Assembly: GCA_027604505.1 (NCBI GenBank)
Contig: JADIIX010000036.1
Location: forward strand, 62,001-126,000
DNA from: Gonapodya sp. JEL0774
Taxonomy: Eukaryota
Direction: 5' to 3'
DNA length: 64,000 nt
In this document: positions 19,719-45,777 of the stretch, one piece after another
Position numbering within the stretch: position 1 is the first letter of the stretch
Layout of the letters: every line of letters begins with the position of its first letter
Position numbers and translations under genes: made by a program
The notes under the pieces: generated by a model
What the model was told of the DNA's origin: nothing
Seen by the model: the letters and a program-made list of their open reading frames with translations, nothing else
Databases searched by the model: none

Positions 19719-21922
19719 ATGCTACAAATTCAAGCTCCAATCGCGATAGCAGACCAGCCTGCGACTCCCTCCGACACGTCCCCACCTACATATTCTCACT
19801 CCAACATCTTCAACCAAGACACCTACGTGGAAACGCAAAAGGCGCTCTTCTGGGACGTGGACTCGAAATTTTCGTCAAGTCACGAAATCGCGCTTTGCTA
19901 CACGCCAACGGACCAGTCCGAAGAGGATCGCGACAGCTCCAACGGAGTTCCTGACGTCGTGGACCCAATCGTAGCTTCAGAGCATCCTGAGGCAGGTTCA
20001 ATTACTTTTGAGTCTGTTCCCGATCAATTAAAGGAGCGGCGCGGTCCGGAGAGAGTGAAACGCCGCAGTGAGTGCTCTTTATACGTGGTACGCCGTCTTC
20101 TAGTTCTTTGCTGAGTGGGGTCGCCAACCTCTTTGGATCACTTGCCCTTCCAGGTGGCCGCAGAACAATGAGCAACATTATAATTCGGCAAAGCGAGGAT
20201 GCTGAATCTGGTAAGTGTGGGGCTCCAGCGATTGAGTTGTTTCGTACATATTCGAAACCATCTTGTCCAACACCTCCCACTTTCCTTTTTCTTCTGTTTT
20301 ATATCTTCGCATATACGCAAATACTCTCGTCATATTCTATCATTGGATGACGCGCTCAGAAATTGCGAAAAACTCTCCCACCGATACCACAACCCTCAAA
20401 ACCTTCCTTCTCTCTGCCGCGGAAGTTGGACTAAGAGACATCGCTAAACCCGTGTCCTGTCCCCGGCCAGGGTGTACCCATGTAATCAACTTGAAGTTTG
20501 TCGACTTGGGCTGGTCCCAGGATCCGTACGCTGCCGACATCCGCCTTGTGATTCAAACATGCAATGCGAATAGGAACGGACGGAAGTGCAATGGGAGGTT
20601 CGCCAAGCCTGCGTGGTGAGCTTAGTCGTTTTGTCTGCACTTCCAGTAAGCGTAGTGAAAAAATTTGTTCTTTGCTCGATGCAAATTCCCGAAGGTGGGA
20701 CGGGGCAACAATCGATTACTCAACTCTCCATCAAAAGTTGCGCAAAAACGGAATCATACAACTCGGCAAGGGAAAAAGACGGAAGTTGGATGACTATCCC
20801 GGCGCGAGCAACAAATCACGAAGAAAAGCGCGTGACGAGTCTCCAGGGAAACAAGAGTCGGACTCAGACGTCTCGTCTATTTCGACGAGTCCCGAATACT
20901 CTTCCATATCTCGGCAGGCTTCGACCGCGAGCTCACTTTCTGACTTGGCAGCGAGGTCGCCGAGTTTCGGATTCGCACTGCCCGAGTCACAGATGCTCAT
21001 TCCTCCAGCGCACGCACTTCCATCTCCCGCTTTGCTGTCGCCTCCAACTCCGGCACCTCCGATTTACACTGGGCAATACTCTGGCAATTATCAGAGTAAC
21101 GGAATGGTCGCATTGACGACAGGACACTTGACAGGCGTATCGATGAACAGTGGCTTTGACGAGGGGATGGCGCAGCCTCAAGGCAACCTCAACATCAACA
21201 TTAACTTCGGTCCGCCGACAACGCCTCTTCTTCCCATGGCGACTCCGTTGGCTGTACCCCGAGTCAATTACCCACTCTCAGCGTTATCCGGGCAAAGTGT
21301 TTACGACCCGGGCTTTGCGAATCAATACTTCATTCCCGAGCACCGTCCTCAAACCTTTACTTATGGCGTCTCCTCATCCATTCCACTGACTGCAGCATCT
21401 ATTGTTCAAACGCCCATGCCGTCGCAGCAACCTCCGTCTCATTCTGGTGTCGCCCCGACTCTGCCTCCGACTCTCCTCCAACTCTTGGCATTTGGCCACT
21501 CCAACTCAATGGGTCCGGTACCCGCAATTCCTCCGGCCACATCTTTTGATTTCGCCGTGGCACCGTCCGTTTGCGTCTCCCAACCTGCGCCGAATTTCGC
21601 AATGGCGGCCAGCGCAGACATGTCACAATGGAATCGACCTCGCACAATCCACGAGGTCCGTGAGCTTGTCGTACCCCGTGGTCCCCGTCGTGCCGCGAGT
21701 GAGGGTTGCGTGACGTCGATCTCCCAGGAGCACCCGCTTGGATCGCGCTCCAACTCCGACCAGAGAGCAACACAGGTGCACTATGATCCTTTGAACCCAT
21801 TCACTCACCGCTCACTCGATGTGGCTGCGGCAGCTTCGATTGCGGATCCAGACTCAGCCGACGCGATGTTATGGACTGATTTGGATGATCTGGCTTCGGA
21901 AGTGTTGGGGATTGGTGTTTGA
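19719..21922 (+). CDS. Uncharacterised Cys/His-domain family protein, paralog P1 (putative Zn-binding transcription regulator)
   Basis: Exons 19719-20067, 20154-20210, 20360-20615 and 20695-21922 splice in frame. Domain LKTFLLSAAEVG...CPRPGCTH...LKFVDLGW...QTCNANRNGRKCNGRFAKPAWWDGATIDYSTLHQKLRKNG, then NLS-like GKGKRRK and tail YDPLNPFTHRS. Confidence 0.8.
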
Positions 21923-22665
21923 ACGGTTGGGGGTACAGATGTTGCTTGGAAGAGATGGCAGTGCTGCGTTTGGGGAAGAGTCTCGTTGGATGATAATGAT
22001 TGGATCGGACAATCCCGAAGAGACGAAAACGTGACGTTATCTGAAATACCCGTTGCAAACTGACGATAAACCTCTGCTTATGTGTATGTAGTATACATAG
22101 AATGATCCATAATATATGTAGGACACTTCTCTGCTTCAATGAGTCAGTGTTGGCGGCATGAGTTTGGAAACGGTGTCGTTCAGGCCGCCAATGAAACCTA
22201 CAATTCAAAATTTCGATGACCATTGCTTATCGCAGTCTTGCGCTGTCTCATTTTTATCTTAGCTGTCTTAGCGCGCAACCAGTAATCGTGCGGGGTAGAT
22301 AATGCGAAACACGAGCTTCGATGTAAAGTAAATGGTGAATTGGAGCGGGGAACTGAAAAGCATAGTACAGAAACGCAATTTAACAGACGATTCACTGGGG
22401 CTCAAACGGAGTTTGTTCGGTTGTATCGCCGAGGATAGCAATTCCGCGGTTGGTTCCATATATGGTCGGTAGTTTGTACTTGAGGAGCCGAAGTACTCCG
22501 CGCTCGCAATCGCAAGTATTAAACAACAACAACATGAGGGGATTCACCCCCAAGCACATAAAATCGCCTGGAACTTTGCTCGAACGGTACCCCGCATCTC
22601 CAGAAACGAGCTCCGGAGTGGAATCGCAGCTTCCGAAAGTGGCGGGCGCGGGATAGAGTGAGACC

Positions 22666-45400: not shown

Positions 45401-45777
45401 GAAGGACCGAATGTCCGCAATTTGGGCGCGGGCAGGTGACTGGTCGAGCAATGTTCTCTAGCCCAACTTCGAGTGCGGAAAGAAGGTAGGTCTTAAGCGA
45501 GACATGCCGGAGATTTCGCTTTGCAGAAACCGCTAGCAATGGAGTCGCAAAGGGAATAAGTAAGAGGTGCAGGAGGTCTGAGCGCAGAAGAACACCTTCG
45601 GCATCCGCAACCCCAGAAAGACAAGGATTTCCAAACACACTTCTCCCGCAATCGTTGCCACCATGCCATCCGCTCAAAAAGCCGTTCCTCAGATGACAAA
45701 TTCAACTCACCGTTAATTCCCCCTAATCTACACTCGCCCTTATACTTTGCTTCGTTGCGGCGACGAGTTTCAATACC
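42441..45777 (-). CDS. Uncharacterised Cys/His-domain family protein, paralog P5 (Q-rich, His-Pro repeat, acidic C-terminus)
   Basis: Main exon 45532-42441: KRNLRHVSLKTYLLSALEVG...CPRPNCGH..LKFVDLGW...QTCNAVRDKKKCGGRFAKPDWWEGPTIDYSALDSRLKRNG. The upstream exon ending at 45711 (GIETRRRNEAKYKGECRLGGIN) is homologous to a P3 exon. The gene probably extends further 5'. Confidence 0.82.

What the first reader, a model, noticed from the sequence alone, without database searches (positions are those of the whole stretch)
19719..45777. Cluster of five paralogs defining an unrecognised ~100-aa Cys/His (putative zinc-binding) domain with transcription-factor-like architecture
Seen: five genes (P1 19719+, P2 22666+, P3 36778-, P4 38820-, P5 45777-) share the approximate consensus LL(S/T)AxEVG-x8-CPRxxCxH-x3-LKFxDLGW...YxxD(I/L)x(L/I)VxQTCN-x7-CxxRFxxPxWW-x3/4-IDYSxLxx(K/R)L. 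Cys spacing is C-x4-C-x28-C-x8-C in P1, P2 and P4; P3 and P5 carry an acidic insertion after GW. Basic patches usually follow the domain (GKGKRRK, RRRRT, KSRQRR), then non-alignable S/P/Q/H-rich tracts and acidic ends. Knowledge: I cannot match this spacing to C2H2, Zn2Cys6, GATA, MYND, WRKY/GCM1 or KDZ CxC domains. Inference: a lineage-specific family of Zn-dependent DNA-binding regulators expanded locally. Introns split the domain in P1 and P2, so ORF-level annotation hides the family.
Basis: partly seen in the sequence, partly recalled or inferred. Interest (0 to 1): 0.92.

Follow-up and report, generated by a model that had tools for sequence, protein, structure and literature searches.

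The report
New zinc-ribbon family in aquatic fungus
Five neighbouring genes of the aquatic fungus Gonapodya share a 98-residue four-cysteine domain that our searches found only in this genus; it is predicted to fold as a zinc ribbon in a small frame of its own, and it likely serves as the DNA-binding part of an unnamed family of gene regulators.

Summary
Five paralogues carry the domain: 38 invariant columns across six proteins, C-x4-C-x28(43-53)-C-x8-C, synonymous sites saturated, pN 0.16-0.35. The window matches annotated Gonapodya sp. JEL0774 proteins letter for letter. A profile search of 1.84 billion representatives finds only these and one G. prolifera orthologue of P3. Pfam, NCBIfam, PHROGs and PDB sequences give no significant hit. 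The AlphaFold2 model is confident (pLDDT 85). The whole domain has no clear fold match (best Z 2.2). The Cys core alone gives eight weak matches (Z 2.1-2.3), mostly zinc ribbons (TMEM55B, TAB2 NZF, MCM, ZPR1). So this is a new family with a likely zinc-ribbon core. Corrections: P5 likely starts at 47113, and P2 likely at 22840. The public annotation fuses P4 with P3 and skips P1's first Cys. Added: a shared C-terminal YxP(L/M)xPF(T/S)(H/Y) motif in P1-P4, and a basic 22-aa repeat before the domain in P3/P5. The transcription-factor reading is plausible (11 conserved basic positions, acidic ends) but untested. S/P-rich tails are not above background here, and the closest fold neighbours bind peptides or ubiquitin. 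DNA-binding regulator about 0.5. Interest 0.5.

The parts
19719..21922 (+). P1 gene, 629 aa; exons 19719-20067, 20154-20210, 20360-20615, 20695-21922; domain about 20389-20770
   Evidence: Open spliced frame with GT-AG introns. The public model HDU93_006148 uses acceptor 20470 and skips LLSAAEVG and the first Cys
22840..24471 (+). P2 gene, 432 aa; exons 22840-22968, 23052-23149, 23250-23722, 23822-23933, 23985-24471; domain 22843-23322
   Evidence: Reproduces HDU93_006149 exactly. The last two introns lie in an open frame and are unverified; an upstream in-frame ATG exists at 22666
33463..36778 (-). P3 gene, 907 aa; exons 36778-36538, 36285-36148, 35807-33463; domain 35404-35778 with acidic insertion; full-length orthologue in G. 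prolifera (KXS14558.1)
   Evidence: 82 of 97 domain columns identical to the orthologue
37371..38820 (-). P4 gene, 422 aa; exons 38820-38416, 38350-38018, 37901-37371; intronless domain 38521-38817 (the copy modelled)
   Evidence: The public model HDU93_006152 fuses P4 to P3. P4 has its own stop, shared end motif and acidic end, and a 592-nt spacer (GC 0.45) follows
42441..47113 (-). P5 gene, 1373 aa; exons 47113-46150, 45776-45711, 45532-42441; domain 45153-45503 with acidic insertion; KSKKPRKKRPR basic cluster in exon 1
   Evidence: Reproduces HDU93_006154. Splicing restores the repeat pair shared with P3, and its second intron is at the same position as P3's second
36148..36285 (-). Basic N-terminal extension of P3: two (D/E)CxxGGxxG repeats, 22-aa period; also in P5 (end of exon 1 plus 45711-45776) and in G. 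prolifera
   Evidence: no Pfam hit
35119..35244 (-). Acidic-aromatic island of P3 (residues 315-356, DPLDEFFDFS) that passes the acidic activation-domain predictor; its core is kept in the orthologue
   Evidence: 3 of 300 shuffles pass
21782..21808 (+). Shared C-terminal motif YxP(L/M)xPF(T/S)(H/Y), P1 copy
24211..24237 (+). Shared C-terminal motif, P2 copy
33739..33765 (-). Shared C-terminal motif, P3 copy (also in the G. prolifera orthologue)
37701..37727 (-). Shared C-terminal motif, P4 copy; none in P5

Best explanation
Five intact paralogues in a 27-kb cluster share a 98-residue domain found only in Gonapodya, whose four invariant cysteines are predicted to hold one zinc in a zinc-ribbon core, and the proteins are likely DNA-binding transcription regulators. 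In the model of P4, C25-x4-C30 caps a first hairpin and C59-x8-C68 a second, lengthened one, with strands 37-40 and 52-58 between them; the acidic insertions of P3 and P5 fall in the loop between those strands. A short N-terminal helix (11-14) and a C-terminal strand and helix (82-94) flank the ribbon and likely pack on it, since the core alone models worse. Conserved K/R on the ribbon (K37, K66, K67, R71) and on the last helix (91, 93, 94) would contact DNA, helped in P3/P5 by the basic repeat extension. The acidic-aromatic tails and the shared YxPxxPF motif would recruit co-regulators. Shown: paralogy, selection, restricted range, conservation pattern. Predicted: fold and Zn site. Inferred: nuclear DNA binding and activation.
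For: Domain conserved while the tails do not align. 11 columns are K/R in at least 5 of 6 proteins against 7 acidic columns, plus conserved F/W/Y. Model pLDDT 84.8, pTM 0.73; four of five models at 82 or above. Core matches among 48,161 chains: TMEM55B 126-164 (its second Cys4 Zn domain is 126-158), TAB2 NZF (rmsd 1.6 over 30), MCM8, MCM8/9 and ZPR1; ZPR1 and the top Foldseek row 2x5c are named as zinc ribbons in PMC5906684. That paper says type-2 ribbons prevail in nucleic-acid-binding proteins and gives Z 3.3-3.9 between true ribbons. The last 60 residues have net charge -7 to -18 in all six, against -4 to +4 in 9 other ORFs. P3 passes the Kotha-Staller predictor; 0 of 15 background ORFs do. 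No hydrophobic segment (maximum 19-residue Kyte-Doolittle mean 1.33). Lineage-specific expansion of a solo domain in low-complexity flanks is typical of eukaryotic TFs (PMC3537659).
Against: No DNA-binding data exist. The fold matches are weak (Z 2.1-2.3, within chance range per the tool) and the whole domain matches nothing (best Z 2.2). I could not inspect model coordinates, so Cys clustering is inferred from secondary structure and these matches. The two top neighbours are a peptide-binding and a ubiquitin-binding module, not DNA binders. Domain net charge is modest: +8, +3, +3, +2, -6, -4. The NLS pattern K(K/R)x(K/R) is in 2 of 6 proteins, and 5 of 6 fail the activation-domain predictor. 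Tail S+P and disorder are within the window background. The background ORFs are stop-to-stop frames, not all true protein ends.
Confidence: 0.5

Rival explanations
1. The zinc ribbon is a protein-binding module (ubiquitin, peptide or partner recognition), and the proteins are cytoplasmic or nuclear scaffolds whose disordered tails carry short motifs such as YxP(L/M)xPF.
For: The best core matches are TMEM55B (binds a peptide) and TAB2 NZF (solved with diubiquitin). Pfam Tmemb_55A is a weak hit on P1 (E 0.007-0.01, below its cut-off). The end motif contains NPF/DPF and YxxL/M strings, recalled as trafficking motifs. There are 7 conserved acidic columns.
Against: The N of NPF is not conserved (N, N, M, N, D). 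No membrane segment and no tandem ribbon as in TMEM55. 11 conserved basic columns and a basic extension fit nucleic acid better.
Confidence: 0.25
2. The domain binds RNA or single-stranded DNA through conserved aromatics and basics, as zf-GRF and topoisomerase ribbons do, in condensate-forming post-transcriptional regulators.
For: Invariant F72, W77 and W78 follow the last Cys, and PMC9369019 describes an aromatic cluster on the last strand of zf-GRF. Long disordered tails. A multi-RRM gene sits inside the cluster.
Against: The zf-GRF spacing (one residue between the first ligands) and NxGRxFY are absent. hhalign to the TopA ribbons gives probability 0.16. Acidic ends fit activation better than RNA binding.
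Confidence: 0.13
3. The domain is a remnant or domesticate of a transposon or giant virus (a statement of origin that does not exclude the best explanation).
For: Many eukaryotic DNA-binding domains came from mobile elements (PMC3537659). G. prolifera carries NCLDV-like genes (PMC5294986 passages). The narrow range fits a sudden gain.
Against: No transposase or viral domain in any of the five annotated proteins. No PHROGs hit below E 0.18 and no BFVD fold hit (best E 0.37). No relative outside the genus among 1.84 billion representatives. No terminal repeats flank the genes. Introns are shared and selection is purifying.
Confidence: 0.1
4. The copies are pseudogenes, or the shared pattern is chance or an artefact.
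For: Expression could not be checked here.
Against: All five frames are open with canonical introns; pN is far below pS; a full-length orthologue exists in a second species.
Confidence: 0.02

Closest known systems
Zinc ribbon fold (type 2: TFIIS, Rpb9, ZPR1, MCM Zn domain; PMC5906684, section 5 read)
   Same: Two Cys pairs at hairpin turns in the model, the first starting CP; weak structural matches to ZPR1, MCM8/9, MCM4 and NZF.
   Different: Knuckles are C-x4-C and C-x8-C, not CPxCG. The ribbon sits between an N-terminal short helix and a C-terminal strand and helix, and the whole unit has no clear match. No sequence homology.
TMEM55A/B (PIP4P) cytosolic Cys4 domains, PDB 8oqh (PMC12393467 passages)
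   Same: Top structural match for the core (Z 2.3, rmsd 2.9, 39 aligned, 28% identity) and a weak Pfam PF09788 hit on P1 (E 0.007-0.01).
   Different: TMEM55 has tandem ribbons and membrane helices and binds peptides. Here there is one ribbon and no membrane segment. The hit is in 1 of 6 members and far below cut-off (15.5 against 30 bits).
zf-GRF and topoisomerase IA C4 ribbons (PMC9369019 passages)
   Same: Wide, variable gap between the third and fourth Cys; aromatics after the last Cys.
   Different: First ligands are four residues apart, not one or two; no NxGRxFY; no aromatic two residues before the third Cys; hhalign probability 0.16.
Phage P2 Ogr and NrdR zinc-ribbon regulators (resemblance recalled)
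   Same: Small Cys4 ribbons in transcription regulators; CxxRF end shared with NrdR (8 columns).
   Different: hhalign probability 0.8% and 0.3%; no homology shown.
Lineage-specific eukaryotic TF families such as ALOG (PMC3537659, section 3 part 1 read)
   Same: A solo conserved domain with a zinc-ribbon insert, in low-complexity flanks, expanded in one lineage.
   Different: ALOG is all-helical and traced to recombinases. This domain is mostly beta, has no traced source and is seen in one genus.

Membership tests
Zinc ribbon fold | Two Cys pairs, each in the turn of a beta-hairpin | tested here: met
   DSSP of the model puts strands at 23-24/33-34 around C25-C30 and at 52-58/71 around C59-C68; this is a prediction
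Zinc ribbon fold | Canonical CPxCG knuckle spacing | tested here: not met
   Spacing is C-x4-C and C-x8-C in all six; consensus
Zinc ribbon fold | Structural superposition on solved ribbons | tested here: inconclusive
   8 of 48,161 chains at Z 2.1-2.3, most of them ribbons (labels partly, partly recalled)
Zinc ribbon fold | Binds one Zn through four Cys | not testable with these tools
   No coordinates or ligand model available
zf-GRF (PF06839) | First two ligands one residue apart; NxGRxFY before the third Cys | tested here: not met
   no Pfam hit
Topoisomerase C4 ribbon (PF01396) | First Cys pair two apart; aromatic two residues before the third Cys | tested here: not met
   Four apart, and Q at that position; hhalign probability 0.16
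TMEM55/PIP4P (PF09788) | Tandem Cys4 domains plus membrane helices; score above Pfam cut-off | tested here: not met
   One domain per protein; no hydrophobic segment; 15.5 bits against cut-off 30
Ogr/Delta and NrdR ribbons | Sequence homology over the ribbon | tested here: inconclusive
   hhalign probability under 1% against single E. coli sequences, a weak test
Described fungal Zn TF domains (C2H2, Zn2Cys6, GATA, MYND, WRKY/GCM1, CxC) | Match to the family's Pfam model | tested here: not met
   No such family listed for domains or whole proteins; the same scan found zf-MYND in a neighbour at E 3e-10
Sequence-specific transcription factor (functional class) | Conserved basic folded domain with unalignable disordered tails | tested here: met
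Sequence-specific transcription factor (functional class) | Nuclear localisation signal and acidic activation domain | tested here: inconclusive
   NLS pattern in 2 of 6; predictor passes 1 of 6; acidic ends in 6 of 6
Sequence-specific transcription factor (functional class) | Sequence-specific DNA binding | not testable with these tools
   Needs PBM, SELEX or DAP-seq
Transposase-derived DNA-binding domain | Homologue inside a transposase or mobile element | tested here: inconclusive
   None found, but eukaryotic repeat libraries were not available

The most novel reading that the evidence does not exclude
This is a new class of eukaryotic sequence-specific DNA-binding domain: a Cys4 ribbon with non-canonical knuckles set in a helix/strand-helix clamp, with no clear match among solved structures. 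It arose within one fungal genus and is kept as a clustered family of five regulators with a shared co-regulator motif, giving a rare look at the birth of a transcription-factor family.
Probability: 0.35. Interest if true: 0.72.

Novelty: new variant of a known kind. Interest (0 to 1): 0.5.

Why it matters
Regulator inventories of early-diverging fungi are built from Pfam domains, so a family like this is invisible, and the public annotation also damages three of its five members (one truncated, two fused). If it binds DNA, it adds a DNA-binding architecture to the eukaryotic list and gives a small, soluble, well-modelled 98-residue target (P4, intronless) for direct tests. Its reach is limited: it is seen in one genus with no genetics, and orphan Cys-rich families are common in fungal genomes (own knowledge).

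Tried and rejected
No whole genome was held for this window, so copies elsewhere in the genome, and unannotated copies in G. prolifera, could not be counted. Whether other monoblepharid proteomes are in the searched collections is unknown. No RNA holder was listed for 33400-39000; exons rest on splice signals, paralogue comparison and the public models. Metagenome scan: 2 of 324 candidates passed, both a 20-residue match in a frame with none of the rest of the domain (L001 read; L002 not read, same match); rejected. PRD1 adsorption protein P2 recurs as a weak hit (E 0.01-0.3) but aligns only one of the four Cys; rejected as chance. Trp repressor rows (E 0.14 or worse) rejected. No short relatives of 13-291 aa among 4,632 candidates. 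ESM Atlas: best feature hits 0.88-0.90 to unnamed clusters and DUF3268; no usable named hit, and structure rows under the naming bar. Foldseek found nothing at E 0.001 or better in PDB or BFVD; these absences do not show a new fold. A recalled likeness of the N-terminal repeats to KGG/Em repeats got no Pfam support. Ogr, NrdR and TopA comparisons were negative. Earlier scan findings: nothing returned. Literature searches (listings only) showed no paper on this family; the library lacks most subscription journals, and no supplements were opened.

Full report
Observation. A six-frame scan finds the motif at all five places named. A profile of the five domains finds these loci only, the next hit being E 2.6. 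Splicing P1 and P2 at GT-AG introns restores complete domains, and the P1 intron and the second P2 intron interrupt the same WW codon. Cys spacing is C-x4-C-x28-C-x8-C in P1, P2 and P4, and x53 and x45 in P3 and P5. Over 98 codons, synonymous sites are saturated (pS 0.67-0.90) while pN is 0.16-0.35, so these are old paralogues under purifying selection.

Source and gene models. Annotated proteins of Gonapodya sp. JEL0774 match the window letter for letter: HDU93_006148, 006149, 006152 and 006154, all 'hypothetical'. Fitting exons to them gives four points. P2 is annotated from 22840. P1 is annotated with an acceptor that skips the first Cys, whereas acceptor 20359 gives an open 629-aa protein with the full domain. 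P4 and P3 are fused into one model; they are likely two genes, since P4 has its own stop, end motif and acidic end, a 592-nt spacer follows, and the G. prolifera orthologue starts where P3 starts. P5 starts at 47113; 45777 is an intron end. Two unrelated genes lie inside the cluster: a multi-RRM gene and an LRR-like ORF.

Range. HMMER with the family profile over 1,835,955,588 representatives returns five proteins at E 0.001 or better: the four above and G. prolifera KXS14558.1. The word-indexed searches agree (5 of 7,996 candidates; 0 of 4,632 short ones). The G. prolifera protein aligns to P3 end to end, with 82 of 97 domain columns identical, against 74 for P5 and 54-65 for the others. The tree supports {P3, P5, G. 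prolifera} at 98/95 and leaves that fork open. G. prolifera has thus either lost the other copies or they are unannotated; this could not be checked. Pfam, NCBIfam, PHROGs and PDB sequence searches give nothing significant.

Anatomy. Thirty-eight columns are invariant in six proteins. Eleven columns are K/R in at least five of six, and seven are D/E. P3, P5 and the orthologue add a basic extension with two (D/E)CxxGGxxG repeats 22 residues apart. P1-P4 and the orthologue share YxP(L/M)xPF(T/S)(H/Y) near the C-terminus. It occurs four times in the window's six frames and never in 30 base shuffles, though the pattern was drawn from the hits. P3 and its orthologue also share five amphipathic repeats ending PPLR and an acidic-aromatic island.

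Structure. AlphaFold2 on a 7-row alignment gives pLDDT 84.8 and pTM 0.73 for P4, with short strands around both Cys pairs, a central strand pair, a short N-terminal helix and a C-terminal strand and helix. The whole model has no Foldseek match in PDB or BFVD (best E 0.33 and 0.37) and a best Z of 2.2 among 48,161 chains. The 62-residue core alone models less well (pLDDT 74.9) and gives eight matches at Z 2.1-2.3: TMEM55B 126-164, TAB2 NZF, MCM8, MCM8/9, VCPIP1, a mitoribosomal chain twice and ZPR1. TMEM55B 126-158 is a Cys4 Zn domain (PMC12393467 passages). ZPR1 and 2x5c, the top Foldseek row for the core (E 3.9), are zinc ribbons in PMC5906684 (section 5), which reports Z of only 3.3-3.9 between true ribbons. 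That NZF, the MCM segments and the mitoribosomal chain (bL33m) are ribbons is recalled; VCPIP1 is not known to me as one. Each match is within chance range; their agreement is the evidence.

Function. The fold does not decide it, since ribbons bind nucleic acids and peptides. For a transcription factor: a single conserved basic domain, unalignable tails, acidic last 60 residues in 6 of 6 proteins against near-neutral ends in 9 other ORFs, no membrane segment, one predicted acidic activation domain in P3 (formula from PMC10550315 passages; 3 of 300 shuffles pass, 0 of 15 background ORFs), and lineage-specific expansion (PMC3537659). Against: S+P content is ordinary for this window, the NLS pattern is in 2 of 6, five of six fail the predictor, P3's basic patch is not conserved, domain net charge is modest, and the nearest folds are protein binders. 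I put DNA-binding regulator at 0.5, protein adaptor at 0.25, RNA/ssDNA binder at 0.13 and mobile-element origin at 0.1.

Comparison and novelty. It fails the defining spacing of zf-GRF and topoisomerase ribbons (PMC9369019 passages), lacks TMEM55's tandem and membrane parts, and shows no homology to Ogr, NrdR or TopA. It works most like a zinc ribbon but belongs to no described family that I could test. Searches of the held library (listings only) showed no description of it. Verdict: a real, undescribed, genus-restricted domain family, a new variant of a known fold, with function inferred. Interest 0.5, rising to about 0.7 if DNA binding is shown.

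Noticed in passing
window 51965-54885: Two bestrophin genes (PF25539, E 1e-17 and 3e-18) on opposite strands, with 69% DNA identity over 144 bases: a second local duplication.
   Followed up: partly
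window 18051-18382: Tandem duplication of 164 bases (95% identical, 168-base period) 1.3 kb upstream of P1; also a 38-base tandem at 39524-39599 upstream of P4.
   Followed up: no
window 25941-33125: Large multi-exon gene with RRM domains (PF00076) and Q/G/S-rich tracts, between P2 and P3.
   Followed up: no
window 39983-41545 (-): 520-aa ORF with a weak LRR hit (PF24758, E 0.03) between P4 and P5.
   Followed up: no
window 57653-59320 (-): 555-aa S/P-rich ORF with a short helical N-terminal part and a KRQR cluster, no Pfam hit; regulator-like but without this domain.
   Followed up: no
window 33900-34660 (-), approximate: Five amphipathic repeats (F/Y)xxV(M/L)xE(L/M)xxxxPxLR in the P3 tail, all kept in the G. 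prolifera orthologue; a possible repeated co-factor motif. A PMD(L/V)S string is also kept.
   Followed up: partly
window 5790-7394 (-), 14393-15121 (-), 56430-56960 (-): Ordinary neighbours: zf-MYND, ThiF-family and GRAM-domain genes.
   Followed up: no
window 15354-15473: Assembly gap of 120 N.
   Followed up: no
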